This document shows positions 2,877 to 63,058 of a stretch of 64,000 nucleotides of DNA, piece after piece (positions within the stretch are counted from its first letter, which is position 1; the number at the start of each line of letters is the position of its first letter). The notes beneath the pieces are model-generated. The model saw only the letters and a list, made by a program, of their open reading frames with translations, did no database searches and was not told the origin of the DNA. The translations under genes and the position numbers were made by a program. This stretch comes from Escherichia phage QL01: sequence record NC_028847.1, one strand, 5' to 3'.

Positions 2877-3077
2877 TTAGTTACTTGAATCGACCTTATA
2901 GACTTGTCCGCGGGTTTGGTAAACTTCGCCGTCCCATGTTTCAACTGTGATAGTAACGTACTCTGCAAAAAGAGGACGTGTATCTGTCCAGAGATAACCA
3001 TATTCACCTGTGACGAGCGTAACCCAGTACTTTCTCATAAAGTCTCCTTTTGTATGGCACCAATTAGTACCATACAT
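2877..3077 (-). CDS. hypothetical protein
   Basis: 66 aa ORF directly downstream of gene 39, before terminator at 2853-2870. Confidence 0.4.
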   Translation of the reverse strand: MYGTNWCHTKGDFMRKYWVTLVTGEYGYLWTDTRPLFAEYVTITVETWDGEVYQTRGQVYKVDSSN

Positions 3078-3082
3078 ATTTA

Positions 3083-16998: not shown

Positions 16999-17439
16999 TT
17001 AACCTCGATTCATAAAGGCATTAAAAATCTGGTCATCTATTGAATAAACCGGAGCTTCCAGAATTTTCAACAGACTGTTTTTGATATACTTGCTAGGGAT
17101 GTCCATATTAACGCGGTCGTTCAATTCGTTGTCTGGGAGGATGTCTTTAAATTCGAATCCATCAAACTCAACCTTGTCAGGAATACCTTCGGCGAAAAAA
17201 TAAACCAATTGGTGCATTGTATTGCGAGAAAATAATTTAGACCTCACCGCAATAAGTTCTTGCCAATGGTTTAATTCTCTGTTAAGAAGTTTATGAGCCA
17301 TTGTAATTCGATCATCGCTATCAACAAGAAAATAACCTAGGTATTGGTGGTCGTCGCTCCAAAACATCCTGTATGCTTGTGCATTTGGATTTTTACAACG
17401 AAGTTTTTTGATAACTAAATTTCTGTTAATCTTATTCAC
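16999..17439 (-). CDS. hypothetical protein
   Basis: 146 aa ORF coupled to neighbours. Confidence 0.45.
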   Translation of the reverse strand: MNKINRNLVIKKLRCKNPNAQAYRMFWSDDHQYLGYFLVDSDDRITMAHKLLNRELNHWQELIAVRSKLFSRNTMHQLVYFFAEGIPDKVEFDGFEFKDILPDNELNDRVNMDIPSKYIKNSLLKILEAPVYSIDDQIFNAFMNRG

Positions 17440-17725
17440 CTGTCACCTCTTTAACGATATTTTTGTTATCGAAATTGGCATCGCAATACAAAACATAGTT
17501 ATATTGCATAACACCGCTTGAAGCCAATTGGTCTGACACTTCTTTAACCATATCAGGGCGGTCGCGTTTAGTGATGTTCATGATATCAGCATAAATCTGA
17601 TGCTCAACCGCTTCTTGATCGGCAGTCATAGACCATTCACAAAGGTCTTTATCCAATCCAGCCGTAACTGGAGCCGTGCCACATGACGCTACTGTAAGGA
17701 TTGCTGCGATTAATAACTTTTTCAT
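17432..17725 (-). CDS. sp: periplasmic protein, Spackle-like (superinfection exclusion)
   Basis: Trimmed to Met11 giving 97 aa with signal peptide MKKLLIAAILTVASCG; position between 61 and dmd as T4 61.3. Confidence 0.5.
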   Translation of the reverse strand: MKKLLIAAILTVASCGTAPVTAGLDKDLCEWSMTADQEAVEHQIYADIMNITKRDRPDMVKEVSDQLASSGVMQYNYVLYCDANFDNKNIVKEVTGE

Positions 17726-17753
17726 AATGTTCTCCTCGGTAGTTGATAGGTCC

Positions 17754-17783
17754 ATAGTATCACTACCATAGACCGTTGTAAAC
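17754..17783 (-). promoter_or_regulatory. early-type promoter cassette
   Basis: GTTTAC, 18 nt, TACTAT. Confidence 0.5.
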
Positions 17784-17784
17784 T

Positions 17785-18024
17785 TTATTTTAATGAATCT
17801 TCCAAATAAATTTTACGGAATTTACGTTTTGTCTGACGAATCTGACGCTTAGTGGGCTTCACAGGAAATTCGAAGAACTCTACGTATTCTTGTTCATAAT
17901 CGTTGTGGCCCACTGAAAGAACTAGTTCCCAGTTGTTTACGGTACGTTGGATAAACATATTATGCTTACCGAAAGATTTATTCCAAAAAGAGCTAGGAGT
18001 TGGTTTCATTAGTACGATATTCAT
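17785..18024 (-). CDS. hypothetical protein
   Basis: 79 aa basic ORF. Confidence 0.4.
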   Translation of the reverse strand: MNIVLMKPTPSSFWNKSFGKHNMFIQRTVNNWELVLSVGHNDYEQEYVEFFEFPVKPTKRQIRQTKRKFRKIYLEDSLK

Positions 18025-29919: not shown

Positions 29920-30282
29920 TTAATTACCAATGGTGTACTTAGACAGTAGTTCCCAGTCATTTTTCTGCTTAAAGGAAATGACACGGAAGTTATTGGTGAT
30001 TTCGAACAGTTCAGAGTCGTCTACGATATCAATCAGTCCCCACTCCTTAAGAAGCTGGGCAATTGAATCACGACGTTGGTAGTCTTCACCATCGATATCA
30101 ACTTGGCGGCCATCCATACGCAACATCTCTTTAAAGTGGACGATATAGTATAGCCCTTGCTTTTGCAGAATGTGGCAGGATTGATATAGTTTCTTTTCTT
30201 TATTATTAGCGATACCCATACGAGTTAGGGTCTCTTTCACTTTCAAGAAGTCTTCAGGTTGTTTCAGAGTAATTTCAATCAT
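29920..30282 (-). CDS. regA: RegA translational repressor
   Basis: 120 aa; near-identical to T4 RegA (MIEITLK.PEDFLKVKETLTRMGIAN...). Confidence 0.95.
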   Translation of the reverse strand: MIEITLKQPEDFLKVKETLTRMGIANNKEKKLYQSCHILQKQGLYYIVHFKEMLRMDGRQVDIDGEDYQRRDSIAQLLKEWGLIDIVDDSELFEITNNFRVISFKQKNDWELLSKYTIGN

Positions 30283-30288
30283 TTTAAT

Positions 30289-30861
30289 TTACCATTCCAA
30301 TGCTTTCTTTTTCAAGTCTTTTTGTTCTTTAACATTTTTAGTTACGGATTTCAGGAATTCGTCCGTAACCAACCCTTTCATCTTCTTAAGCACTGCCGGA
30401 AGATGGCCTTTAATTTTATAAGTCTCGAGATAACGATAAGCGTCATCATTATTAATTGAATGGTATTTCATCAATAAACGAGTAATAAAAACTACACTAA
30501 CTTCATCATCATGGGCCTTAGCCCATTTACCAAACCTCTTACCCTTAGGAACAGTGTGTAAAAGATAGTTGAAATGACTTTGGTCATCAAGTTTCAGACA
30601 GTTAACCATTGCAGCCTGCATAATACAATCCACATGTTGGCTCAAACTATTATCGAGCCAAAATTGATTGTAGTTTTCCGACTGAGCCAAGTTACGTTGG
30701 TTCTTACCATATGTGATATCGTTCATAATGGCGAACAGTTCGTTTTCAGCCTTTTCTTTAAATGAATCGGCCAAGGCTTGAATTGCAGCGTCGTTACGTG
30801 ATTTCCAAGCAACTTCATGTTCGTTCAGTTCAACGTCATCATCAAAAAGACTTATAGCCAT
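30289..30861 (-). CDS. 62: clamp loader small subunit
   Basis: 190 aa; matches T4 gp62 (NEHEVAW, FKEKAENE, VTKNVKEQK.LKK.ALEW). Confidence 0.9.
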   Translation of the reverse strand: MAISLFDDDVELNEHEVAWKSRNDAAIQALADSFKEKAENELFAIMNDITYGKNQRNLAQSENYNQFWLDNSLSQHVDCIMQAAMVNCLKLDDQSHFNYLLHTVPKGKRFGKWAKAHDDEVSVVFITRLLMKYHSINNDDAYRYLETYKIKGHLPAVLKKMKGLVTDEFLKSVTKNVKEQKDLKKKALEW

Positions 30862-31811
30862 TGGAGCTCCAGAGCAAGTTGGATGAACAGATAAGTCATG
30901 TGAATTTCTGGGTTAGCCGCAATACCGTGGTATTGGTTATTTTCACCGACAATTTCGTACATTCTAACAATGCTTGGCCCAGGCAATTTACCATAGAGTT
31001 CGTTAGCCAGCGACATAATAAAGTTGGAATAATCGTTGACATGACGTGGAGCTAATGCACGGAGTTCTTTAAAGTTTTTATCTTTAAGTGCAGCCACTAC
31101 TTCATCGATAGGCGAATTGGTATTCATTACAATACTCAAAATGCCTGTATCGATTTTACCACTGGATGAGTAACGGTCCAGTTGGTTAACTGTTTTACGG
31201 AAGTCAGGAAAGTTTTGTTTAACTAAGGCAGCAATAACTTTAAGGTCTTCGGCTTCGATATTTTCGTTTTTACAGATTGCTACAGCACGATGAATCATTT
31301 CTTTCATCATGGATGTTTGGTCGGCCGGGGTGGCTTCACCAAATTTAATAACACGACAACGGGATTGAAGTGGACCGATAATACCATCAATATTGTTTGC
31401 TGTAATAATTACAGAACAGTTTGAGGAATAGGCTTCTAAGAACGAACGAAGGTGACGTTGAGCTTCAGCAACACCGGCGCGGTCGAATTCGTCGATAACA
31501 ATTACCTTACGCTTACCTTCGATAGATTTGGAAGATGCAAAACGAGTAAGTTCATTACGAACGAAATCAATACGGCAGTCAGAACCGTTAACAAACAACA
31601 TGTCTGAATTTGTATCAGCACACAATGCTTTAGCTACGGTAGTTTTACCTGTGCCTGGTGAAGCAGAGACTAGGATAATGTTAGGGATTAGGCCCTTATT
31701 AACAATGGCTTGGAGGGTTTCTTTATCATGCGCAGGCAGAATACACTCAGATAAAGTACCTGGACGATATTTCTGTTCCCACATGAATTCATTATTGTTT
31801 ACTGTAAGCAT
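30852..31811 (-). CDS. 44: clamp loader large subunit (AAA+)
   Basis: 319 aa; Walker A SPGTGKTT, Walker B VIDEFD; stop overlaps gene 62 start. Confidence 0.9.
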   Translation of the reverse strand: MLTVNNNEFMWEQKYRPGTLSECILPAHDKETLQAIVNKGLIPNIILVSASPGTGKTTVAKALCADTNSDMLFVNGSDCRIDFVRNELTRFASSKSIEGKRKVIVIDEFDRAGVAEAQRHLRSFLEAYSSNCSVIITANNIDGIIGPLQSRCRVIKFGEATPADQTSMMKEMIHRAVAICKNENIEAEDLKVIAALVKQNFPDFRKTVNQLDRYSSSGKIDTGILSIVMNTNSPIDEVVAALKDKNFKELRALAPRHVNDYSNFIMSLANELYGKLPGPSIVRMYEIVGENNQYHGIAANPEIHMTYLFIQLALELQWL

Positions 31812-31872
31812 ATTAATTTCCTCAGGTTTGTTTTTACATTATACTCCAAGGGAGGAATTTCCTCCCTATGCT

Positions 31873-32571
31873 TTAGAACGAGTGGCTTGAGCCTGCTTCC
31901 ATAGCCAATACATAAGAAGCTTGTGAACCTTCAAACTTGGCTGCGAAACGAGCGTCCTGGCCTTCACCACGGGCCCATAACAATACATGGTAATCGGCAG
32001 GCATCATTTTCATATTAGTTTTGTTGATAATGAATTTGAATTCAGGGCCATCATGATCTGCAACCACTAAGGAATACAATGGACGGGCCAGGTCCTTATC
32101 ATCAACTTGTTTGTAGCCATTGATTACAATTTTACCATTGTCTACAGTAATAGCAAATGTATCAATACTCAGTCCAGAGGACACACGCATCAACTGCTGG
32201 TAATCTTCGGCTTTAAGGTCAAAAATAACTTCAGCCACCGGGAACGGAATAGCTTTGCTTGGGAATGCAATTGTGCTTGGGTCGGCAATAGGCCACTTAA
32301 TAGTTGAACGTTGGTCTTTAATAATTAAAGTGGTTTGGTCTTCACTTACCGAAACTTCAGCACTTTCAGATACCAATGACAGAATACTTAAGAAGCCGTT
32401 CAGGTCGTAGATTGCGGCTTCGATATCAAAGGTGTCATTTACAGTAGCTTCACCATAACTTGCACCCGTTACTGAACGAGTTAGAATAGTGTTACCAGGT
32501 TTAAGCATGATACCTGGGTTAATACCGGAGAAGTTTTTCAGAATGTTCAGAGTTTCTTTAGAGAATTTCAT
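31873..32571 (-). CDS. 45: sliding clamp
   Basis: 232 aa; high similarity to T4 gp45 along full length. Confidence 0.9.
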   Translation of the reverse strand: MKFSKETLNILKNFSGINPGIMLKPGNTILTRSVTGASYGEATVNDTFDIEAAIYDLNGFLSILSLVSESAEVSVSEDQTTLIIKDQRSTIKWPIADPSTIAFPSKAIPFPVAEVIFDLKAEDYQQLMRVSSGLSIDTFAITVDNGKIVINGYKQVDDKDLARPLYSLVVADHDGPEFKFIINKTNMKMMPADYHVLLWARGEGQDARFAAKFEGSQASYVLAMEAGSSHSF

Positions 32572-32599
32572 AATGTTTCCTTATCAAGTCAAAAATTAA

Positions 32600-33013
32600 T
32601 TAAGCAATAACGATCATTTGTTTACGAATGGATTCAGGCAGAGATTCAATATACTCTGGAATCTGGGAAGCAACAATAGCACCAGCTTCAAGCAGTTGTT
32701 CGTCAAAATCTACACAATAATCATCTTCGAGACGTTCAGAACCATCACGGTCGATAACCAGTTTAGCACCTGCGGCCAGTGAATCATTATAGTGGCGACG
32801 CATAATTTCTACCCACTTATCGGATACGTCGTTATCAATGATACCGTAGAGCATGAACTTAGTTTCTTGTGGAAGAGACTGCAGACGACGTGCAGAGTCG
32901 GTATCAATATTCAGTACCCATGATTTACGGATACGGTTTTGATTATGTGGGTTGGAATCAGTACGAATGGTTTTAACTTGGATATCTTTAACAGTAATAG
33001 CGTTAGCAAACAT
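32600..33013 (-). CDS. rpbA: RNA polymerase binding protein A-like
   Basis: Start at MFANAI; position downstream of 46/45.2 and upstream of 45; MotA-type promoter upstream. Confidence 0.5.
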   Translation of the reverse strand: MFANAITVKDIQVKTIRTDSNPHNQNRIRKSWVLNIDTDSARRLQSLPQETKFMLYGIIDNDVSDKWVEIMRRHYNDSLAAGAKLVIDRDGSERLEDDYCVDFDEQLLEAGAIVASQIPEYIESLPESIRKQMIVIA

Positions 33014-33043
33014 AATATTTTCTCTCATTTGGTTGGTAGATGT

Positions 33044-33067
33044 ATTATAAATCAATATTTTAAAGCA
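33044..33067 (-). promoter_or_regulatory. MotA-type middle promoter upstream of rpbA
   Basis: Minus-strand TGCTTTA, 11 nt, TATAAT. Confidence 0.45.
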
Positions 33068-33073
33068 CTTAAT

Positions 33074-33265
33074 TTAATCAAAGTATTCATAAACGAACCA
33101 GGCAGGATTCCTGTTCGACATGATTCTATCATACTCTGACTTAAAAGCATTTCGGAGATAATCTTCAGTAACAAGATGTTCGTCTCCAGAGAAGTTATTA
33201 ACTAAAACATACCGCTTTAGTTCAGGAACGGCCAACAAATGCTGGCCTGTTATAAAATCACTCAT
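33074..33265 (-). CDS. hypothetical protein (45.2 position)
   Basis: 63 aa ORF coupled to gene 46. Confidence 0.45.
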   Translation of the reverse strand: MSDFITGQHLLAVPELKRYVLVNNFSGDEHLVTEDYLRNAFKSEYDRIMSNRNPAWFVYEYFD

Positions 33266-34944
33266 TCCATCACCGTGAATCGTCCAACTTTCTTCATTTG
33301 AAGATGTTGGCCATAAGCTTGTGGGTCATGGTCTCGGTGAGAGATAATGAACACGTTCGTATCCTCAAGGCTATTCAAGATGGTTGCAATGGTCTTAACG
33401 CCTTCAGCGTCAGTAGCACTGTCAAATACCTCATCAAGAATTAACGTGCTGATATTAACACCTGATACCTTAGAAGCAATATCGCGCCATGTAAAAAGTA
33501 GTGCGATATCAATACGTGCTTTCTCACCCTGTGAAAATGAAGCATAACTAAAGTCTTCACGTCCACGTGATTTAATCGTCTCATTGAACTCTTCGTCTAG
33601 TGTAAAGACGTAGTCGGCTTCCATAATCTTCAAATAAGAATTTATCTGCTTATTAAAGATAGGAATGTATTTCTTAATAATGGAACCTTTAATACCAGTA
33701 TCCTTCAACATTTCTGTCAGAATTCCACGATGGTATTTTTCCATTACCAAGGACGATTTGGTAGAGACGATTTTATCAAGCTCTGCTTGAAGCGCGGCAA
33801 TCTCTTCGGCATTACTTACGAACTCAGCAGCTGCTTGGTCGATTAATACTTTAACTTTTTTAGCTTTCTCTACGGCAGTAATGGCTTGTTGCTTATGAGT
33901 AGCTATCTGAGATTTAATAGCCAGAGCTTTATTACGTTGTTCGGTTACTTGGTCCTTAATGAGCTTGAGTTCTTGGTACTGTTCGTTAATCTTATCCAAA
34001 GATTTTTGAAGCTCAAAGTTCTTATCCTTAATTTTAGTAAGGATATTTCCATGCTCTTCCAGTCCTTGCATACATGTAGGACAACTACCACCGGTTTCGT
34101 ATAATTTCACGACCTTAGTAAAGGTTGCCATATCATTCTTGATTGCAAATCCTTTATTGCTCAGGTCACTCATAGAGTTGCTAGGGTCATCATCGACGAT
34201 GACATTGAGTAATTCATCAGTCAGTTTTTCTATATTGCCCTTCGCAGTCCTGGCTTCTTTAACGAGCTCATCGTACATTGTTTGTAGACGTGCTGCGTTC
34301 TCACCTGATAATTTACGCTGACGTTCTTCGTTGTCATTATAAATTTTAATTTGCTGGATAATAGAATCCTGTTTAACGTCGATTACTTGGATTTGGCTAT
34401 TAGTCTCACGAATCAAAGATTTGTTCAACTTGTCCATATCCGCTAATACAGAAACCTCTAAGAGGTCTTCCACAAGCTTTCGGCGCGCAGGGGTCGACAA
34501 ACCCATGAAAGGGGTATACCCTGCTGTACCAAGTACGACAATCTGTTTGAAACTGGTATATGACATTCCGATAAGCTGTTCAAATTCTGCTTGGAAGTCT
34601 TTACTGCTGGCAGATTCATCAAGACGTTCACCGCCACAAGAGATTTCAAAAACGTTCGGTTTTTGCCCGCGCTTGATATAGTATTCTTTGCCATCATATT
34701 CCATCCACAGTTCGACCAAAAGGTCTTTCTTATTACTTGAGTTAATCAACTGCCCTTTCTTAACATCACGAAAAGGCTTACCGAACAGAGCAAATGTAAC
34801 GGCTTCAAGGAACGTAGATTTACCAGCGCCGTTTTTACCGGTGACTAAGGTCTTTTGGACCTTATCAAGTTGGATTGTAATAGGTTGCTGGCCTACCGAC
34901 ATAATATTTTTATACGTTACTTTCTTTAACTTAAACGTTTTCAT
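33262..34944 (-). CDS. 46: recombination endonuclease subunit (Rad50/SbcC-like)
   Basis: 560 aa; Walker A GKNGAGKST, long coiled coil, C-terminal LILDEVFD signature. Confidence 0.9.
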   Translation of the reverse strand: MKTFKLKKVTYKNIMSVGQQPITIQLDKVQKTLVTGKNGAGKSTFLEAVTFALFGKPFRDVKKGQLINSSNKKDLLVELWMEYDGKEYYIKRGQKPNVFEISCGGERLDESASSKDFQAEFEQLIGMSYTSFKQIVVLGTAGYTPFMGLSTPARRKLVEDLLEVSVLADMDKLNKSLIRETNSQIQVIDVKQDSIIQQIKIYNDNEERQRKLSGENAARLQTMYDELVKEARTAKGNIEKLTDELLNVIVDDDPSNSMSDLSNKGFAIKNDMATFTKVVKLYETGGSCPTCMQGLEEHGNILTKIKDKNFELQKSLDKINEQYQELKLIKDQVTEQRNKALAIKSQIATHKQQAITAVEKAKKVKVLIDQAAAEFVSNAEEIAALQAELDKIVSTKSSLVMEKYHRGILTEMLKDTGIKGSIIKKYIPIFNKQINSYLKIMEADYVFTLDEEFNETIKSRGREDFSYASFSQGEKARIDIALLFTWRDIASKVSGVNISTLILDEVFDSATDAEGVKTIATILNSLEDTNVFIISHRDHDPQAYGQHLQMKKVGRFTVME

Positions 34945-35165
34945 GTATTGTTCTCACGAATTGTTTGTTCAGCATATTCTAGCATTTCTTCGGAAGAAGC
35001 AAACACGTCGTCAAGTTCCATGGCCCATGAAACACCTTCAGAATATTCAGAAGTGACATACATAGTTCCGGTATACCAAGAACCATCCACGTCCCATTCT
35101 ACATTACCGAACCAGCCATCGCCAATATGAAAATCATGTTTATACATTTTCATCATTATAAGCAT
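34941..35165 (-). CDS. hypothetical protein
   Basis: 74 aa ORF between 47 and 46. Confidence 0.4.
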   Translation of the reverse strand: MLIMMKMYKHDFHIGDGWFGNVEWDVDGSWYTGTMYVTSEYSEGVSWAMELDDVFASSEEMLEYAEQTIRENNT

Positions 35166-35403
35166 CCTTGATGCATGATTCAGCCATATGAATTAATGTT
35201 TCTGGAGTATCATCTACCATTACATTAAAGCTAAATTCCACAGCCCAATCAGTAGCAACATAAACTTTAATAAGCTCGTTGGTATCGCGAGTGCTCACGG
35301 CTTCAAACCAGAACTTAATGATATTCGTTTGGTTATCGTCATCAATAACGATGCAGTCGTGTTCTAGTTCAAGGCCTGATTTTTTGAATTCATCTAAAGT
35401 CAT
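35140..35403 (-). CDS. hypothetical protein
   Basis: 87 aa ORF between 47 and 46. Confidence 0.4.
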   Translation of the reverse strand: MTLDEFKKSGLELEHDCIVIDDDNQTNIIKFWFEAVSTRDTNELIKVYVATDWAVEFSFNVMVDDTPETLIHMAESCIKDAYNDENV

Positions 35404-36422
35404 CGTGTAACCTCATTATAAAGTTGTGCGGTCATAGTCTTAAGGGCTTTAACATCGTCTTCAGTGTGGCCATCAGGAAGGGCATCGATATAATCATACA
35501 TCATATCCAAGAGGGACTTAACTTCATCTTCCTCTTCAGAATCATCGATATCAACACTGTTATCTACCTTAGACACAATACGTAAAGAGTGAACAACCTT
35601 TTCAAGTTCAGATTCGAACTTGGTAAGCCCGTCATCAATTTTATCGACTATAACACGAACCGCAATATTTGTAAAATCTTTGTAATCGATAGTCGCATTC
35701 GGATAATGAATCTTACGATGCCAACAAGTTTCATTGATGATGAAATCCATTTTATGGGTTTCTGTATCGAAAATCCAGAAGCCACGAGGGTCGTTCTCAT
35801 CACCTGCAGTCAGGGTCCATGGCGTACCAATATACTTGACGTTTGCTGCATCAGAAATGGTGTGGAAGTGACCAGACCATACTTGCTTATACTTCTTAAG
35901 GAAATCAGGTTCTAAACCATGTGATTTCATTCCTTTATAGAAATAGAAACCATTTAATTCCCAGTGGCCAATACAGAAATCGGCAGTAGTATTTTTGATA
36001 TGGTCCATGATATCAGTCGTGTTTTCTTCACACATCCATGGAATCAAATCAATTTCTGTACCATCAAAGTTAACCGTAGTAGGTTTCTCAATAACCTTGA
36101 TATGGTCGTATTTACCCAGAACTTCAGAAGCAGCGTTCGGTGTCAAGGTATTTTTGTAGTGTGCATCATGGTTACCAACAACAGTATACATGGTAATGCC
36201 ATTTTCTTTAAGCAAATCTGAAATATGTCTGGCAAATTCCATGCACTTATGAGTAATTGCTTTACGAACATCAAAAATATCACCATACTGAATCCAGACA
36301 GTGATACCATTTGCTTTAGAATAATTGATGGCGTCTTTAATGCCTGCCAATTGAATATTTTGCACCCAAGGGTCGTCGTTCTTCACTCCAAGGTGCCAGT
36401 CACCCGTATTAAGAATTTTCAT
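35400..36422 (-). CDS. 47: recombination endonuclease subunit (Mre11/SbcD-like)
   Basis: Start at MKILNTGDWHLG (340 aa); calcineurin-like phosphoesterase motifs GDWH, GNHD, GHFH. Confidence 0.85.
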   Translation of the reverse strand: MKILNTGDWHLGVKNDDPWVQNIQLAGIKDAINYSKANGITVWIQYGDIFDVRKAITHKCMEFARHISDLLKENGITMYTVVGNHDAHYKNTLTPNAASEVLGKYDHIKVIEKPTTVNFDGTEIDLIPWMCEENTTDIMDHIKNTTADFCIGHWELNGFYFYKGMKSHGLEPDFLKKYKQVWSGHFHTISDAANVKYIGTPWTLTAGDENDPRGFWIFDTETHKMDFIINETCWHRKIHYPNATIDYKDFTNIAVRVIVDKIDDGLTKFESELEKVVHSLRIVSKVDNSVDIDDSEEEDEVKSLLDMMYDYIDALPDGHTEDDVKALKTMTAQLYNEVTR

Positions 36423-37026
36423 TACGTATCCGTTCCCACATTTTGGAGGCTGCTTTAGAAGCAGAGCCAGGAAGTTTACCTTTGACCCACCCATCAGGAA
36501 TATTAGATGGGTTAATCAGTTTATGTTCTATTCCGTTATTATACCACTTCCTGCCCTTATTATGACTAGATGCTTTATAATTAGGTGAACGACCTTCTAC
36601 ATATCCTTCGGGGACTGTAGGTGCAAAGGTTTGTTCTAATGTAATAGGATTATAGGAATGAATATACCCTTTAGCATTATGAGAGCCGTAAAGAGGGTGT
36701 TGCTCTTTAGGTAGCGAAAGCCCAAAGAATCCTTTAGGAGCTGCGACAGCCCTATTAAAGAATAGAGGATTTTGGGCCGCATTGGTTCTTAACTGGTACA
36801 TTCTTTCAGCTTCTAAAGCCTCTTCTCTTGTAGGGTGTTCACTTACAATACATGAGTCAAATAATTCTGGATGCTCTAAAAGCTCATTTTTATAGATTTC
36901 TTTATATGCTTTAGAAAGGACACTCCCGTGATATCCTTTTAAATGCTTCTCTAAAGTGGTAGACCCTATATAAAACGGTGGAAGCTTAGTCCCGGAATAT
37001 ATTGTCAGGTATGTGATGTATTTCAT
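36409..37026 (-). mobile_element. GIY-YIG homing endonuclease gene (Seg-like) with NUMOD3-like C-terminus
   Basis: 205 aa; KYITYLTIY...FYIGST (GIY/YIG), conserved R/E/N block (CIVSEHPTREEALEAERMYQL); C-terminal KWYNNG...PDGWVKG; overlaps 47 start; weak RBS. Confidence 0.7.
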
Positions 37027-37058
37027 AGATTTATTTTATCATCCGAATATAAAGCAAA

Positions 37059-37078
37059 AAAGGAGCCTAAGCTCCTTT
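37059..37078 (-). terminator. intrinsic terminator
   Basis: Stem AAAGGAGC/GCTCCTTT, U6 tract. Confidence 0.55.
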
Positions 37079-37240
37079 ACCAACTAATACACCGTACAGA
37101 GGTTCGTGATTAGACCTGAACTTGATAGGCTTATAGGTAATAGTACCTTCATTTTCTGCTTTAATACGAGCGGCTTCAAATTGAAGTATCATCTCATTTT
37201 TGTCAGATTTAATCTTATCAAAATCCATCGAATTCGTCAT
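37067..37240 (-). CDS. hypothetical small protein
   Basis: Hand-called 57 aa ORF with AAGAGG SD; stop lies in terminator loop. Confidence 0.35.
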   Translation of the reverse strand: MTNSMDFDKIKSDKNEMILQFEAARIKAENEGTITYKPIKFRSNHEPLYGVLVGKGA

Positions 37241-37298
37241 TCATACAACCTCTTAAACTTTTTCGTATTCGTCTTTCATTAGCCGCCTGTCCACGTTA

Positions 37299-37499
37299 TC
37301 ATCGTTGCCACCATTTCTTAAGTTGATGAGAATCTACCCAAACCTTGGCTACGGGCTCAATCCGAAAAATTCCATCGGAATACTGGCCGACCATTTTATA
37401 TTCGGTTTCGGACTGCTTAATACAGATATTACCGTATGAGCGAAGTCTAAAGGCGGCTCCAATAAGAAGCCGTTTAAAGGGTTTATTTACTAGGGCCAT
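37299..37499 (-). CDS. hypothetical protein
   Basis: 66 aa ORF. Confidence 0.4.
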   Translation of the reverse strand: MALVNKPFKRLLIGAAFRLRSYGNICIKQSETEYKMVGQYSDGIFRIEPVAKVWVDSHQLKKWWQR

Positions 37500-37794
37500 T
37501 GACGATTTCCCAAATTTGTTTGCGGGTAGATTCCCACATCAATTGAACAAGTTCATCAGTAACAGGTTGACGGTAAATACCACGTAATTTAATTAAAGCG
37601 TACTTATATGCTTCAAAGTTGTTTTCAAGTACAGCGCCTTGGGCATGGAGATTTAAACGACGGATTTCACGAGCATTCTTCTTAAGAATCTTAGCCGCTT
37701 GAGAATTAGCTTCTTTAATATTGTGCTCTTCTAAACGTTGCTGGGCTTCTTCAATTTGCTCATCAGTCAATTGAGAAATGTCATGGCTTTGCAT
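37483..37794 (-). CDS. hypothetical protein
   Basis: 103 aa helical, basic ORF. Confidence 0.45.
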   Translation of the reverse strand: MQSHDISQLTDEQIEEAQQRLEEHNIKEANSQAAKILKKNAREIRRLNLHAQGAVLENNFEAYKYALIKLRGIYRQPVTDELVQLMWESTRKQIWEIVNGPSK

Positions 37795-37795
37795 A

Positions 37796-38026
37796 TTAAT
37801 CCTTTGGAGTCAATTCAATAGTGAAGTAGAAATTAGCGTTCTCAACATGATAACGGTAATCTACGTTATTGTCAGGAGAAGTGAATTCAATATTCCTGAC
37901 GTTAAGTGGGTCAATATCAATAGGAAGACCTTTAACATCCCGTAATATCAATTTAATAAAATAAGGGAGTGCTTCGAAGTCTTCCATTCCATCTAAAAGT
38001 GGAGTGATATTAATCTGATGTTCCAT
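37796..38026 (-). CDS. hypothetical protein
   Basis: Trimmed to Met13; overlaps 3' end of gene 55. Confidence 0.4.
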
Positions 38027-38567
38027 ATAAAAAATCCAGTTCACCAACTTTAGGTTCGGCACTCTTATCAGACCCTGGTGCTTTAGTTAAAGAGGTTTCA
38101 TACTGAGTCATTTTGTCGTAGATATCTTGGATAAAGGTTTCATCTGCAATACCTACCATGTCGTCATCATTACTGTCATAGACATTATGGACGAAGTAGC
38201 TATATTTCTTTGCCATTTCTTTACGTTCTTTTTTGATACGCTGAACGAAGGCATTAAAACAAGCCATAGTGATATATGCATGTGGGTTGTCGTATTTTGT
38301 TTCGTCGAAGTTGTGAAGACCTTTAATCGAAGCTTCGATTCCATCAGCAATCATTTCTTGCTTCCAAGATTGGGTATATCCTGAGAAGTTGAAACGTTTA
38401 CTTAGTCCTTCAGCAATGAGCATAATAGCCAAGCCGATAACGTCGTTCTGGCGAACTATTTTATTAGGATCGGTATTTTCTCTGAGTTCTGTTTTCCATT
38501 GGGTGATAGCTTTCAGAAGCTCCTTATTATTTACATAGTTATTTTTAGTCAGTTTAATTTCGGTCAT
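38010..38567 (-). CDS. 55: late-transcription sigma factor
   Basis: 185 aa; size and sequence pattern of T4 gp55 (sigma region-2-like segment). Confidence 0.85.
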
Positions 38568-38633
38568 TGTTACCTCAGATAACTCAAATCATAGGTCTAT
38601 TATATCATAGTATTTGAAGACCCTTTTAAAGCA

Positions 38634-38897
38634 TCAACGGAGTAAGCAATAAGCCTGAAATACGGTTTCAAGGATTTGTGTGAACTCGGAATAAGAAATT
38701 GTATCAGTACATCCATGTTCAGACATATATCCACAAAATTCTTTAAAAAGACCTGGATATTCGCGATGGTTGTATTTGGAAATATGAGACTTCCATACTA
38801 AAGAAGTCTCACCACAAACAAACTCAACATCCATACAGTTATCTATTAAGAAAAATCCGAGACCTTCGTAGGCGAGGGTAGTGGATACAGGGGTCAT
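38634..38897 (-). CDS. hypothetical protein
   Basis: 87 aa ORF. Confidence 0.4.
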   Translation of the reverse strand: MTPVSTTLAYEGLGFFLIDNCMDVEFVCGETSLVWKSHISKYNHREYPGLFKEFCGYMSEHGCTDTISYSEFTQILETVFQAYCLLR

Positions 38898-39160: not shown

Positions 39161-39486
39161 TTCGCTGCCTTAACAATTTTCAGGTCAACGAATTTTTTCT
39201 TACGTTGGTTTTTCATACGACGGATAGTTTTATCCGTGATTTCGCCAGGGCACCAAGCTTTGGATTCAACACCAAAGGCAGCGACATCGAATTCATCAAG
39301 GATATATTGAACCAGGATTTCACGAATACCGTTCTTACCAATTTTCTGGTCTTTAGAGTGCATGATTGGTAACAGTTCAGCAACCCATTGGTCAAGAACC
39401 TGAGGAGTTACAAAACCTGTTTTCATCAGTTCGTTTACTTTATCGAAAGCGAAAGAGTTCAGTACGTTTTTAATAGCTTGTGACAT
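39157..39486 (-). CDS. hypothetical protein
   Basis: Start at MSQAIKNV; leader nearly identical to that of gene at 45854-46696. Confidence 0.45.
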   Translation of the reverse strand: MSQAIKNVLNSFAFDKVNELMKTGFVTPQVLDQWVAELLPIMHSKDQKIGKNGIREILVQYILDEFDVAAFGVESKAWCPGEITDKTIRRMKNQRKKKFVDLKIVKAAK

Positions 39487-39755: not shown

Positions 39756-39894
39756 TTAAATTTTCCAATTGCCATTTTCATCAATGAATTTAACCCAGTC
39801 ATTTACCGACCACTTGGTTGTATCGCCTTTTGGAGCAACATTTAAGGTATATAACCCCTGCTTAAAAAGCATTCGTTTGATATTCATATTTTCC

Positions 39895-48739: not shown

Positions 48740-48762
48740 TCTTTTTTGCACTAAACCCAAAA

Positions 48763-48782
48763 AAGGAACCCGAAGGTTCCTA
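48763..48782 (-). terminator. intrinsic terminator
   Basis: Stem AAGGAACC/GGTTCCT, UUCG loop, U6 tract. Confidence 0.6.
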
Positions 48783-49022
48783 AATTGCGCTCCAAAAATT
48801 ATGGAAGCGTATATCATTTATAGCCCAGTTAACAAATTGTCTTGTCTGTTTAGGCGTAGGTTTGCACACGTACTTGATATTGACTCGACGTCCGGTTTCT
48901 TTACAGACAGCTTCAAGATACCAACGTCGGGTTTTATGGGGTCTTCCATATGATAAAAAGACCTTCATTTCTTCGTTATCGATAATAAGAGTTGTGGTTG
49001 TCAAGGTATACCTCTTCAACAA
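48780..49022 (-). CDS. hypothetical protein
   Basis: 80 aa; stop lies inside terminator stem. Confidence 0.4.
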   Translation of the reverse strand: MLKRYTLTTTTLIIDNEEMKVFLSYGRPHKTRRWYLEAVCKETGRRVNIKYVCKPTPKQTRQFVNWAINDIRFHNFWSAI

Positions 49023-55733: not shown

Positions 55734-55985
55734 TTATTCTTGGAATGGGGTAAGTTTTCCAGCAGCTGAACAAATTTCTACCAGTACAGGGTAAAACTCT
55801 TTCACTTGTTCAAGGCGTTGGGCTGCATACTGTACTTCACCTTCTTCGAGACAAGCCATTTGGTCGTCAAGCAAGTATTTGTGGTAGCCAGTACAGGCTT
55901 CACCGATGATACGCTGGAAATCTTGTAAACTTTCAATTTTCATCAGTATTTTTCCTCGGGTTGGAAAACGGAACGACACGCCCAC
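55734..55985 (-). CDS. hypothetical protein
   Basis: 83 aa. Confidence 0.4.
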   Translation of the reverse strand: MGVSFRFPTRGKILMKIESLQDFQRIIGEACTGYHKYLLDDQMACLEEGEVQYAAQRLEQVKEFYPVLVEICSAAGKLTPFQE

Positions 55986-57249: not shown

Positions 57250-57409
57250 AGTAGTCTCTTAGTGGTGGGGCCATTCCTTGGCACATAATTCGTCCATGTA
57301 TCCGTATGTAAACCCTTTACCGCACTTGGGCTCGACCTTATTACAGGTAGGGAAAGGTCCATCACTCAGAGGACGCGACGTTCATGAGGAGAGGGCCGGC
57401 TTGCCTTTA

Positions 57410-57709
57410 TTAGAAAGAACCAGAACCTCTAATTGTGTTCTGGCGACCTTTATTTTCTAATTCGGAGTGGTCGATTTCATATGCTTGTGCTACGCCAAAG
57501 GCCTTTTTAACTTTAGCTAAAGAACCTTTAGATGTAACAATATTAAAAGTATTACCTTTGGTAAAATCAACAAAATCGACTTGTACGCCCTGTTTACCGA
57601 GGCTTGCTACAATAGCATCAACATATTCTTGGTCTAAATTGCCTTGAACTCCAATTTGAAATGCTTTAGGAGCTTTGGCTTCTGTGATAAATTCTTGATA
57701 AGTTTTCAT
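57410..57709 (-). CDS. internal protein (capsid-targeting sequence)
   Basis: 99 aa; N-terminal CTS MKTYQEFITEA typical of T4 internal proteins. Confidence 0.6.
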   Translation of the reverse strand: MKTYQEFITEAKAPKAFQIGVQGNLDQEYVDAIVASLGKQGVQVDFVDFTKGNTFNIVTSKGSLAKVKKAFGVAQAYEIDHSELENKGRQNTIRGSGSF

Positions 57710-62098: not shown

Positions 62099-63058
62099 TT
62101 ATTTTTCGAAAGGACGAATTAAATGTTGGTTACGCTTAAACCGTTCAATGTAGTCGTTTTCACCTAAAGTCTTATACATATTCACTACAGCTTGGTAGTT
62201 TTCCCATGCATAAGTGCGGAACCAACCTGAAGTGATTGAGGTGCACACTTTCTCAAGGGCCATATAGAAACTTAATGATGGTGAAATATTGAAGTCATTA
62301 GGAACCTGTGAACGTTCTAGTGCCAGGACACAAGTTTCTTCATACACACCAGCCAGTTTAATAGCTTCAGGCAAAGCCTCGAACTTCTCACGAGAGGTCA
62401 TGACTTCAGAACCTTCCTTCATATAAAAGGTATATGCAGGGCGCCCTGCCAATGCCACTGCTTCATGAATAGAGTCATGGTCCAGCGTATAAATGGTATC
62501 ATTAAAGAACGATGATTTGTTTACGTCCAATTTAGGGTGAGAATAGCTCAACGTTTCTTTTTGACGTTGCAGCATAATTTCCTGGAGTTCTTCGTTAAGG
62601 GTGATACCTTTATTACGAAGGTATTTGATGTGTGACATAGTTTTCAAGAAGAACGGATTATTCTTAAGGAAACGATGAGAGGTTTTGATAGCCAGACAGA
62701 TATCAGGGGTGGCCCAATAGAAACCAGTAAGACGGTCCTTTTTAATATGATTTTCAGCATATTTCAGGAGACGATAGCTTGAAGTGAAATCTTCGTCTTG
62801 AAGCTCACCGGTAATTTCTCGTACGTTAGTCAGAGCACGAACGATATAAGCTTCAAAATAGGTTTCTTTACCATTATGCATACATTTGAAAGCCTGGACA
62901 TCAGGATTGTCAACGTGTACATGGGCGCCGAACATACGTGCTTTAAAGTGATTCCATGAGCCTTGGTCGGCAATGAAATCCCAATCAGAATTTTCGATAT
63001 GCTTACTTTCAATCAGACCAGCGTGGTGCAGTGCACGAGAACCAATAACTAACATCAT
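62099..63058 (-). CDS. hypothetical protein
   Basis: Start at MMLVIGSRALHH with GAGGAAA SD. Confidence 0.45.
   Translation of the reverse strand: MMLVIGSRALHHAGLIESKHIENSDWDFIADQGSWNHFKARMFGAHVHVDNPDVQAFKCMHNGKETYFEAYIVRALTNVREITGELQDEDFTSSYRLLKYAENHIKKDRLTGFYWATPDICLAIKTSHRFLKNNPFFLKTMSHIKYLRNKGITLNEELQEIMLQRQKETLSYSHPKLDVNKSSFFNDTIYTLDHDSIHEAVALAGRPAYTFYMKEGSEVMTSREKFEALPEAIKLAGVYEETCVLALERSQVPNDFNISPSLSFYMALEKVCTSITSGWFRTYAWENYQAVVNMYKTLGENDYIERFKRNQHLIRPFEK

What the first reader, a model, noticed from the sequence alone, without database searches (positions are those of the whole stretch)
36409..37026. Seg-like GIY-YIG homing endonuclease gene at the position where T4 carries alpha-gt
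The 205 aa product has GIY-YIG catalytic motifs (YITYLTIY, FYIGST, conserved Arg/Glu/Asn block) and a NUMOD3-like C-terminal DNA-binding motif (KWYNNG...PDGWVKG). It overlaps the gene 47 start and has a weak RBS, typical of free-standing homing endonuclease genes. Its presence between 47 and 55 where alpha-gt is absent suggests mobile-element-mediated locus turnover.
Basis: partly seen in the sequence, partly recalled or inferred. Interest (0 to 1): 0.5.

Follow-up and report, generated by a model that had tools for sequence, protein, structure and literature searches.

The report
Seg-like homing endonuclease beside gene 47
This is a selfish, free-standing GIY-YIG homing endonuclease gene, a distant relative of phage T4 SegE, sitting directly in front of the recombination-nuclease gene 47 of a JS98/IME08-type coliphage; it is an uncharacterised member of a well-known kind of element, not a new kind, and it is unrelated to the missing alpha-glucosyltransferase gene.

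Summary
The 205-aa ORF at 36409..37026 (-) is real, intact and conserved. Its N-terminal ~95 residues fold as a GIY-YIG nuclease: the best structural matches are I-TevI, UvrC-N, EndoII, Eco29kI and SLX1. The Pfam GIY-YIG score is below the cut-off, but so is that of proven SegE. The closest characterised relative is T4 SegE (28% identity, same length, same two C-terminal motifs). The C-terminal motif is not NUMOD3.

The window is a Dhakavirus. The gene fills the slot of gene 47.1, not of a-gt. a-gt is absent from the whole genus, including phages without this gene. In T4-type phages a 61% homologue sits between a-gt/47.1 and 47.

The gene is sporadic: 5 Dhakavirus phages carry this form and 4 carry a form with a longer C-terminus. 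Others have 47.1 or a deletion scar. About 69 of ~540 Tequatrovirus records carry the homologue.

The window is near-identical to HEG-less phage WG01 for several kb on both sides, except a ~0.96-kb patch holding the gene plus the first ~354 nt of gene 47. A cluster of gene-47-synonymous changes at nt 9-18 is found only with the gene. This fits intronless homing.

Verdict: new member of a known kind, moderate interest.

The parts
36409..37026 (-). Free-standing homing endonuclease gene (HEG), 205 aa, ATG start, TAA stop
   Evidence: ORF list. phrog_10820 E 1.4e-92 and phrog_314 'homing endonuclease' E 5e-16. Intact in 5 phages with synonymous changes far exceeding non-synonymous.
36742..37026 (-). 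N-terminal GIY-YIG nuclease domain (aa 1-95): ITY 4-6, YIG 19-21, GYHGS 31-35, E74, N91
36673..36741 (-). Flexible linker (aa 96-118). HPLYGSHN (aa 110-117) aligns with the start of NUMOD3 units in relatives.
   Evidence: pLDDT 61-72 here. Alignment A1 places it opposite the NUMOD3 repeats of homologues. The query itself has no NUMOD3 hit.
36412..36672 (-). C-terminal putative DNA-binding region. Two beta-hairpin repeats, GYIHSYNP..VPEGYVEGR (aa 119-146) and KWYNNG..IPDGWVKGK (aa 159-184), then a terminal helix (aa 187-204).
   Evidence: Secondary structure of the model. Both repeats align with SegE of RB3. No Pfam model covers them. The DNA-binding role is inferred by analogy with other GIY-YIG homing endonucleases.
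36409..36422 (-). 14-nt overlap of the HEG 3' end (..N E N S stop) with the gene 47 start (ATGAAAATTCTTAA)
   Evidence: Sequence. The same reading-frame register relative to the gene 47 ATG is seen in Tequatrovirus homologues and in the homologue tails (KMWERIRNENS...).
36405..36414 (-). Cluster of five changes at gene 47 nt 9, 10, 12, 15 and 18, synonymous in gene 47, found only in HEG-carrying phages. Candidate target-immunity changes or right edge of the mobile cassette.
   Evidence: Window, IME08, IME540, NC-G and Esco_phi_B-01 read ATTCTTAATAC(G/A). Every 47.1-type or empty Dhakavirus locus examined reads ATA(T/C)TAAACACA, including MX01, dhaeg and dhabil, whose tract body is class A. A parallel four-change cluster exists in Tequatrovirus.
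36069..36422 (-). First ~354 nt of gene 47 (Mre11-type motifs I-III), which entered with the HEG: inferred co-conversion tract
   Evidence: 53 of the 80 mismatches to WG01 within 30000-36422 fall here, binomial p 7e-47. Identity to WG01 is ~85% here and 99.7% in the rest of the gene.
35400..36422 (-). Gene 47 (SbcD/Mre11-like recombination nuclease subunit), 340 aa. The 364-aa ORF reaching 36494 is an over-extension.
37033..37056 (-). T4 middle-promoter-like site (MotA box TGCTTTA, 11 nt, TAAAAT). Its -10 ends 7 nt before the HEG ATG. HEG-less phages share it, where it precedes 47.1.
   Evidence: Pattern match, 9 in the window against 2.25 expected. Conserved in WG01, JS98 and Bp7. Function is inferred from the consensus only.
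37059..37078 (-). Terminator-like hairpin AAAGGAGC-TTAG-GCTCCTTT plus T-run, containing the a-gt.2 stop codon
   Evidence: Conserved in all Dhakavirus loci.
36069..37032 (-). Whole foreign patch (~0.96 kb) in a background otherwise near-identical to WG01
   Evidence: The left edge lies within 37033-37044, because HEG-carrying relatives IME08 and IME540 already differ from the window at 37045-37050.

Best explanation
The ORF encodes an active or recently active free-standing GIY-YIG homing endonuclease, distantly related to T4 SegE. It has an N-terminal nuclease domain, a flexible linker, and a C-terminal DNA-binding region made of two SegE-type beta-hairpin repeats and a helix.

Proposed mechanism (inferred). 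When this phage co-infects a cell with a relative that has 47.1 or an empty site at this locus, the enzyme cuts the rival genome at or near the 47.1/47 junction or the first tens of bases of gene 47. The break is resected and then repaired from the HEG-carrying genome. This copies in the HEG together with a variable length of the 5' end of gene 47 (intronless homing, or localized marker exclusion). The carrier's own copy would be protected by the insertion itself and by the changes at gene 47 nt 9-18.

Expression is probably low. The ATG has no Shine-Dalgarno sequence. It lies about where transcripts from the conserved middle-type promoter of the 47.1-47 operon would start. Gene 47 is then read through the HEG.

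Shown here: the fold, the relationship to SegE, the sporadic distribution, the exact insertion site, the foreign patch and the purifying selection. Inferred: the cleavage activity, the target, the homing and the promoter use.

For: Sporadic distribution. The short form is in 5 distinct phages and the long form in 4. Others have 47.1, a 52-nt junction or a deletion scar. In Tequatrovirus there are 69 HEG-carrying records and about 462 HEG-less ones.

Patch. The window is near-identical to HEG-less WG01 over 31859-36014 (6 mismatches) and 37046-38836 (1 mismatch), but has 53 mismatches in 36069-36422 next to the HEG.

Linkage. The nt 9-18 cluster is HEG-linked in all 16 distinct Dhakavirus phages examined plus the window. 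In Tequatrovirus, 68 of 69 HEG-carrying junctions are >=97.8% identical to the HEG-type junction.

Selection. Synonymous to non-synonymous codon changes are 33:8 and 33:5.

Precedent. SegE homes with near 100% efficiency, cuts in the HEG-less allele of its own intergenic region, and co-converts the flanks (PMC2330249). Seg enzymes cause marker exclusion (PMC2988022).
Against: There is no biochemical or genetic test. The Pfam GIY-YIG score is below the gathering cut-off, and profile-profile alignment to I-TevI is weak (E 0.028). No Arg sits at the canonical I-TevI R27 position.

The ~354-nt gene 47 tract is not strictly tied to the HEG. HEG-less MX01, dhaeg and dhabil carry a class-A-like tract body. 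The patch could therefore come from ordinary recombination, which is very frequent in T4-type phages.

The nt 9-18 cluster overlaps the HEG's own last codons and stop. It may reflect HEG coding constraints rather than target immunity. The exact donor is not in the database: the tract is 96% identical to IME08, while the HEG is 99.3% identical.
Confidence: 0.7

Rival explanations
1. The gene is a passenger: an inactive, decaying or domesticated endonuclease. The patch around it arose by ordinary homologous recombination between co-infecting Dhakavirus phages, not by an endonuclease-made break.
For: T4-type phages recombine intensely, and other small divergent patches exist between the window and WG01 (30555-31252, 38837-38893, 39226-39298, 39768-39858). 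Class-A-like gene 47 tracts occur without the HEG. Decayed or deleted copies exist: KPV15 and KNP5 match in two pieces, and Bp7 and PSD9 carry a deletion scar. The canonical Arg was not found.
Against: The ORF is intact in every short-form carrier, with strong purifying selection. The catalytic Glu and Asn are invariant across 60 homologues. The patch starts exactly at the HEG cassette edge, and the HEG lies at its end. The same family keeps the same insertion point and frame register in at least two genera, with a patchy distribution.
Confidence: 0.17
2. It is a GIY-YIG nuclease used mainly as a weapon against competing phages, or for another role such as host or rival DNA degradation. Its own mobility would be incidental.
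For: Seg enzymes cause marker exclusion of rival phages (PMC2988022). The presumed target lies in or beside gene 47, an essential recombination and replication nuclease gene, so a cut would harm the rival. Fold matches include non-homing GIY-YIG nucleases such as EndoII and PD-T4-3.
Against: The outcome cannot be told apart from homing in comparative data. The closest relatives by sequence are homing endonucleases (SegE and the NUMOD3-bearing Seg-like proteins). The gene does spread together with its flank.
Confidence: 0.08
3. It is an HNH endonuclease, as RefSeq and PHROG 10820 label the homologues.
For: Only the database labels 'HNH endonuclease'.
Against: There is no Pfam HNH hit. The fold matches are GIY-YIG nucleases. 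GIY and YIG motifs are present. 20 of 60 homologues give sub-threshold PF01541 hits and none gives an HNH hit.
Confidence: 0.01
4. The endonuclease gene displaced a-gt.
For: The gene lies between the a-gt.2 homologue and gene 47, the interval where T4 has a-gt and 47.1.
Against: HEG-less JS98, WG01, MX01, Bp7, AnYang and others also lack a-gt. alpha-gt is restricted to T-even-type phages (PMC2993671). In Tequatrovirus the homologue sits downstream of an intact a-gt and 47.1.
Confidence: 0.02

Closest known systems
T4 SegE (free-standing GIY-YIG homing endonuclease, hoc.1/uvsW locus)
   Same: Same length (205 aa). 28% identity over aa 19-192. Shared YIG...GY(H/L)GS...E motifs, and both C-terminal repeats (VPEG(Y/F)V(E/K)G and W(Y/V)NNG...IPDG(W/F)(V/I)KG). 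Both are free-standing and sporadic. SegE cuts the HEG-less allele at its own locus and co-converts the flanks (PMC2330249).
   Different: The genomic site differs (upstream of gene 47, not hoc.1/uvsW). The query does not match the Pfam SegE_GIY-YIG model PF19835, whereas SegE scores 36.5 bits. SegE matches TIGR01453 weakly and the query does not. The query's activity is untested.
I-TevI catalytic domain (PDB 1LN0/1MK0), the prototype GIY-YIG nuclease
   Different: I-TevI is intron-encoded with a Zn-finger, NUMOD3-type helix and HTH DNA-binding domain. The query is free-standing with a different C-terminus. No Arg is found opposite R27. Sequence similarity is marginal (hhalign E 0.028).
NUMOD3-bearing Seg-like proteins of T4-type phages (e.g. 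IME281 P0031, Yersinia phage TG1 'GIY-YIG homing endonuclease' P0085, a Bp7 paralogue)
   Same: Same nuclease domain, 52-68% identical over aa 1-115.
   Different: They carry NUMOD3 repeats plus a C-terminal helical module, and they sit at other loci. The query keeps at most a vestige of one NUMOD3 unit.
T4 SegF and SegG (intronless homing with co-conversion of a neighbouring essential gene)
   Same: Same logic: a free-standing GIY-YIG gene beside a conserved gene (56 or 32), whose adjacent part is co-converted or excluded (PMC2988022).
   Different: No detectable close sequence relationship was found here. For the query, the cleavage site and its distance are unknown.
Long-C-terminus allele of the same gene (vB_EcoM_005 251 aa, KIT01 284 aa)
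   Same: The first 164 aa are ~98% identical at the DNA level. Same insertion site.
   Different: The C-terminal DNA-binding modules differ after KWYNNG. It is linked to a gene 47 5' allele only ~67% identical in DNA and 65% in protein.

Membership tests
GIY-YIG nuclease superfamily | GIY-type and YIG-type motifs on the first two beta-strands, 10-13 residues apart | tested here: met
   ITY at 4-6 (Y6 conserved >=90%) and YIG at 19-21 (>=90%) in 60 homologues. Both lie on strands E3-10 and E18-24 of the model.
GIY-YIG nuclease superfamily | Catalytic Glu (I-TevI E75) and conserved Asn (I-TevI N90) | tested here: met
   E74 and N91 are invariant. hhalign pairs E74 with E75. The N91 assignment rests on spacing (17 against 15 residues), because the alignment stops before it.
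GIY-YIG nuclease superfamily | Conserved Arg on the first helix (I-TevI R27) | tested here: inconclusive
   hhalign places a gap opposite I-TevI 22-30. The short helix at 25-29 carries K27 (the majority residue) and no Arg. R67 is ~90% conserved, but its spatial role could not be examined. SegE also lacks an obvious Arg at this position.
GIY-YIG nuclease superfamily | alpha/beta fold of the catalytic domain | tested here: met
GIY-YIG nuclease superfamily | Pfam PF01541 score above the gathering threshold | tested here: not met
   18.4 bits against a cut-off of 22.6, E 0.0027. 20 of 60 homologues give sub-threshold hits. The experimentally active SegE also falls short (21.5 bits), so this criterion is weak for this branch.
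Seg-type free-standing homing endonuclease genes of T4-like phages | Own ORF between genes, not inside an intron or intein | tested here: met
   The ORF lies between a-gt.2 and gene 47, with its own ATG.
Seg-type free-standing homing endonuclease genes of T4-like phages | Patchy presence among close relatives, with HEG-less alleles of the same locus | tested here: met
   (Dhakavirus). (Tequatrovirus: 69 against ~462 records).
Seg-type free-standing homing endonuclease genes of T4-like phages | Flanking sequence transferred with the gene (co-conversion) | tested here: met
   Comparative evidence only. The patch 36069-37032 lies in a background near-identical to WG01. The nt 9-18 cluster is strictly linked to the gene, while the wider tract is only partly linked.
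Seg-type free-standing homing endonuclease genes of T4-like phages | Site-specific double-strand cleavage of the HEG-less allele, and super-Mendelian inheritance in mixed infection | not testable with these tools
   Requires purified protein and phage crosses.
SegE subfamily (Pfam PF19835 SegE_GIY-YIG) | Match to the PF19835 model | tested here: not met
   The query has no hit at E<=10. 1 of 60 homologues hits at E 0.0021. RB3 SegE scores 36.5 bits. It is a relative of SegE by BLASTP, but not a member of the modelled subfamily.
NUMOD3-containing nucleases (PF07460) | NUMOD3 motif detectable | tested here: not met
   No hit in the query. 23 of 60 homologues do have it.
HNH endonucleases (database label of the homologues) | HNH / beta-beta-alpha-metal motif or profile match | tested here: not met
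   No HNH family among the Pfam hits of 60 members. Fold matches are GIY-YIG nucleases.

The most novel reading that the evidence does not exclude
The endonuclease may target the very start of gene 47, the Mre11-like nuclease that T4-type phages need to resect double-strand breaks, and so to support homing itself. Each C-terminal (DNA-binding) variant of the endonuclease would travel with its own version of the gene 47 5' end. One of these versions changes 35% of the residues in the catalytic N-terminal third of gp47. On this reading the element is an engine of modular exchange inside an essential recombination enzyme, and endonuclease specificity and target allele diversify together.
Probability: 0.3. 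Interest if true: 0.55.

Novelty: new member of a known kind. Interest (0 to 1): 0.35.

Why it matters
It adds an uncharacterised homing endonuclease family to the T4-type repertoire. Members sit at one fixed site, the start of gene 47, in at least two genera of T4-type phages plus an unclassified Klebsiella phage.

It corrects database labels. The homologues are called 'HNH endonuclease' or 'hypothetical', the gene is unannotated in IME08, and gene 47 is over-extended there.

It also offers a clean natural before/after pair. WG01 and this phage are near-identical for several kb on both sides of a ~0.96-kb patch. The target site, the length of the co-conversion tract and the immunity changes could therefore be tested directly with existing phages.

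Practically, such elements explain local mosaicism and marker exclusion in the Dhakavirus and Tequatrovirus phages used for therapy.

Tried and rejected
1. Sequence search of the PDB with the protein and with a 60-sequence profile found nothing meaningful. Fold comparison was needed.

2. hhalign of the family profile against I-TevI was only marginal. I used it for residue correspondence, not as proof.

3. NCBIfam gave no family for the query.

4. I searched for a paralogue of the gene elsewhere in the window and found none.

5. I searched for a T4 late promoter (TATAAATA) near the gene and found none within the locus. The sigma-70-type scan was at background level.

6. IMG/VR scans added few HEG-carrying loci. 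They served mainly to show that HEG-less Tequatrovirus loci share the ATTTTAAATTTA start.

7. My first idea was that the whole 370-nt gene 47 tract is strictly HEG-linked. I weakened it after MX01, dhaeg and dhabil showed class-A-like tracts without the HEG. Only the nt 9-18 cluster remains strictly linked.

8. I rejected the idea that a-gt was displaced (PMC2993671).

9. A literature search found no paper describing an endonuclease at the 47 locus. Subscription journals are not covered.
Full report
WHAT IS THERE

The window is part of a T4-type phage of the genus Dhakavirus (the JS98/IME08 group). The 3.2 kb around the finding is 97-98% identical to phages IME540 and IME08.

The ORF at 36409..37026 on the minus strand exists as described. 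It has an ATG start, encodes 205 aa and ends in TAA. Downstream lies gene 47, the SbcD/Mre11-like recombination nuclease subunit. Its true start is the ATG at 36422, as in JS98, WG01 and Bp7. The 364-aa ORF that reaches 36494 is an over-extension, and the IME08 and IME540 records annotate it that way.

The endonuclease ORF therefore overlaps gene 47 by 14 nt. Its last codons (N-E-N-S-stop) are read from gene 47's own ATGAAAATTCTTAA. Upstream lie, in order:
- the a-gt.2 homologue (37067..37240);
- a terminator-like hairpin (37078..37059);
- a match to the T4 middle-promoter pattern, TGCTTTA-11 nt-TAAAAT, at 37056..37033 (9 matches in the window against 2.25 expected).

The -10 element ends 7 nt before the ORF's ATG, and there is no Shine-Dalgarno sequence. 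No late promoter is nearby.

WHAT THE PROTEIN IS

Profile evidence is weak but consistent.
- Pfam GIY-YIG (PF01541) matches at E 0.0027 and 18.4 bits, below the 22.6-bit cut-off.
- 20 of 60 homologues give similar sub-threshold hits, and none matches an HNH family.
- T4-type SegE, a proven endonuclease, also scores below that cut-off (21.5 bits). The sub-threshold score is therefore typical of this branch.
- PHROG 10820 (E 1.4e-92) is labelled 'HNH endonuclease', and PHROG 314 is labelled 'homing endonuclease'.

An AlphaFold model built on 60 homologues has mean pLDDT 85.9, with 88-98 over residues 1-90.
- By Foldseek against the PDB, its three best matches are the I-TevI catalytic domain.
- Against predicted viral structures there are 77 matches at E<=0.001. 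Nearly all the named ones among the 50 listed are GIY-YIG, Seg-like or intron endonucleases.

Across the homologues Y32, G34, E48, F56, A70, E74 and N91 are invariant. Y6, Y19-I20-G21 and R67 are at least 90% conserved. A profile alignment pairs E74 with the catalytic E75 of I-TevI and GYHGS with GCH40SS, but it places no Arg opposite I-TevI R27.

The closest characterised relative is SegE. tblastn reaches segE of RB3, RB6 and others at about 28-30% identity. Pairwise BLASTP with RB3 SegE, also 205 aa, aligns residues 19-192. This span includes both C-terminal repeats, VPEGYVEGR and WYNNG...IPDGWVKG. The query does not match the Pfam SegE_GIY-YIG model.

Many homologues with the same nuclease domain do carry NUMOD3 repeats (23 of 60). 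The query's HPLYGSHN aligns with the start of such a unit.

THE LOCUS IN RELATIVES

In Dhakavirus the interval between the conserved hairpin/promoter and gene 47 exists in several states:
- gene 47.1, a 47-aa membrane protein (JS98, WG01, IME341, MN04, MX01);
- the 205-aa endonuclease gene (this window, IME08, IME540, NC-G, Esco_phi_B-01, Ec2-ASingh);
- a longer allele of 251-284 aa, nearly identical over its first 164 aa but with different C-terminal modules (vB_EcoM_005, KIT01, SHP1, LQ5);
- a 60-nt scar (Bp7, PSD9);
- a 52-nt junction with neither gene (AnYang, dhaeg, dhabil).

The Bp7/PSD9 scar is exactly what a deletion between two copies of TGAAATACAT would leave. One copy is at the start of the long allele and the other is near its end.

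None of these phages has a-gt. The literature says that alpha-gt occurs only in T-even-type phages, that JS98-type phages lack glucosyltransferases, and that JS98 and JS10 have no homing endonuclease genes (PMC2993671).

In Tequatrovirus a 61%-identical homologue sits between 47.1 and 47, downstream of an intact a-gt. It is inserted precisely at gene 47's ATGAAAA and keeps the same frame register into gene 47. A Klebsiella phage has a 66% homologue in the same place. So the gene occupies or abuts the 47.1 slot, and its presence is unrelated to the absence of a-gt.

SIGNS OF MOBILITY

Compared with HEG-less WG01, the window has 6 mismatches across 31859-36014 and 1 across 37046-38836. It has 53 mismatches in 36069-36422, the first 354 nt of gene 47. 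That is 53 of the 80 mismatches in 30000-36422 (binomial p 7e-47), and 47.1 is replaced by the endonuclease gene.

The carrier phages IME08 and IME540 already differ from the window at 37045-37050. The upstream junction of the patch therefore lies within the 12 nt next to the cassette. The patch (36069-37032, ~0.96 kb) thus has the endonuclease gene at one end and the gene 47 5' end at the other.

Among 14 genomes (13 relatives plus the window), the first 370 nt of gene 47 fall into three classes:
- A, ~85% identical to B;
- B;
- C, ~67% identical to A and B, and only 65% identical in protein.

These classes track the upstream state, while the remaining 650 nt are 94-100% identical with no such structure. 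The linkage is not perfect: HEG-less MX01, dhaeg and dhabil have class-A-like tract bodies.

One feature is strictly linked in every Dhakavirus locus examined. It is a cluster of changes at gene 47 nt 9, 10, 12, 15 and 18 (window 36405-36414), all synonymous in gene 47. Carriers read ATTCTTAATAC(G/A), and every 47.1-type or empty locus reads ATA(T/C)TAAACACA.

Tequatrovirus shows a parallel four-change cluster at nt 9, 10, 15 and 18. 68 of 69 carrier junctions are at least 97.8% identical to the carrier-type junction. About 462 HEG-less records have the other type. At least 7 distinct HEG-less phages (9 records) carry the carrier-type start, as expected for resistant empty sites.

The ORF is intact in all short-form carriers, with 33:8 and 33:5 synonymous to non-synonymous codon differences.

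HOW IT MOST LIKELY WORKS

The best reading is intronless homing, as shown for SegE, SegF and SegG. SegE cuts the HEG-less allele of its own intergenic region, homes at nearly 100%, and co-converts the flanks (PMC2330249). Seg enzymes account for localized marker exclusion (PMC2988022).

Here the enzyme would cut HEG-less relatives at or near the 47.1/47 junction or the first bases of gene 47. Repair from the carrier genome would copy in the gene plus a variable stretch of gene 47.

The nt 9-18 cluster is a candidate for immunity changes. It also overlaps the endonuclease's own last codons, so the data cannot separate the two readings.

Expression is probably kept low. The start has no ribosome-binding site and sits at the predicted start of middle-promoter transcripts. 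This fits the tight down-regulation described for T4 endonuclease genes (PMC2988022). Gene 47 must then be transcribed through the endonuclease gene.

All steps involving cleavage, target choice, homing and promoter use are inferences.

RIVALS

- Ordinary recombination with a passenger or decaying gene is possible, given the imperfect tract linkage and the other small divergent patches. It is less likely given the purifying selection, the invariant catalytic residues and the fixed insertion site across genera.
- A mainly competitive (exclusion) role cannot be told apart from homing with these data.
- The HNH label and the a-gt displacement idea are rejected.

VERDICT

This is an uncharacterised, SegE-related, free-standing GIY-YIG homing endonuclease gene at the start of gene 47. 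It is a new member of a known kind, of moderate interest. The WG01/window pair gives a clean experimental handle.

Noticed in passing
window 36423-36494 (-); IME08 locus L001:501-1604; IME540 locus L011:2001-3095: The longest ORF for gene 47 starts 72 nt upstream of the real ATG, inside the endonuclease gene. The IME08 and IME540 records annotate this over-extended gp47, and IME08 leaves the endonuclease gene unannotated.
   Followed up: yes
L003 (Bp7) 1523-1585; L015 (PSD9) 3023-3085; L005 (vB_EcoM_005) 1520-2275: Bp7 and PSD9 carry a 60-nt scar. It equals the long endonuclease allele deleted between two direct copies of TGAAATACAT (one at its start, one near its end). They keep the class C gene 47 5' allele. 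This is a clear example of loss of the element.
   Followed up: yes
gene 47 nt 1-370 in L003, L005, L013, L015 (window equivalent 36053-36422): The class C allele of the gene 47 5' end is only ~67% identical in DNA and 65% in protein to the other alleles over the N-terminal 123 aa, which hold the Mre11-type motifs (GDLHIG instead of GDWHLG). The rest of the gene is 94-100% identical in DNA. This makes a chimeric essential nuclease. The origin of the segment was not traced.
   Followed up: partly
L016 (AnYang) 3023-3075; L066 (dhaeg) 3023-3080; L067 (dhabil) 2862-2920: A fifth locus state: a 52-nt junction (..TAAAATAG(G/A)TTTAATTAAGCGAGGATATT-ATG) with neither 47.1 nor the endonuclease gene. 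47.1 is therefore dispensable.
   Followed up: partly
window 33261-33460; L010 (Bp7) 17092-17867: Bp7, KIT01 and MX01 have a mob-like homing endonuclease gene, on the opposite strand, next to the 3' end of gene 46. The window lacks it. Beside the Bp7 insertion the window-Bp7 identity drops to 65-75% for ~200 nt. This looks like a second endonuclease-associated divergent tract, and gene 46 is annotated as split in Bp7.
   Followed up: no
NC_019500 (Bp7) 62362-62700; MH791409 (EcWhh-1) 66332-66700; IME281 protein P0031: Other Dhakavirus phages carry a paralogue at a different locus, with the same nuclease domain (~61-63% identical over aa 1-115/131). In IME281 (P0031) it carries NUMOD3 repeats. 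The 64-kb window has no second copy.
   Followed up: partly
window 30555-31252, 38837-38893, 39226-39298, 39768-39858; alignment gaps to WG01 at 48754-48982, 55736-55945, 57351-57680: Further short divergent patches and gaps interrupt the otherwise near-identical alignment with WG01. They may mark other exchange events.
   Followed up: no
window, whole (e.g. 4925, 23387, 33044, 36190, 37033, 54014 on the minus strand): The T4 middle-promoter pattern TGCTTWA-N10-13-TANNNT occurs 9 times against 2.25 expected by shuffling. 7 of the 9 are on the minus (gene) strand, which suggests real MotA-type promoters. One (36190-36214) lies inside the gene 47 5' tract.
   Followed up: no
Tequatrovirus records (e.g. 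Ec_YwIITB1, SHFML-26, UGKSEcP1, EPIMAM01): At least 7 distinct HEG-less Tequatrovirus phages (9 records) carry the carrier-type gene 47 start (ATACTAAACTTG). These are candidates for resistant empty sites left after loss of the element, or for co-conversion without it.
   Followed up: partly
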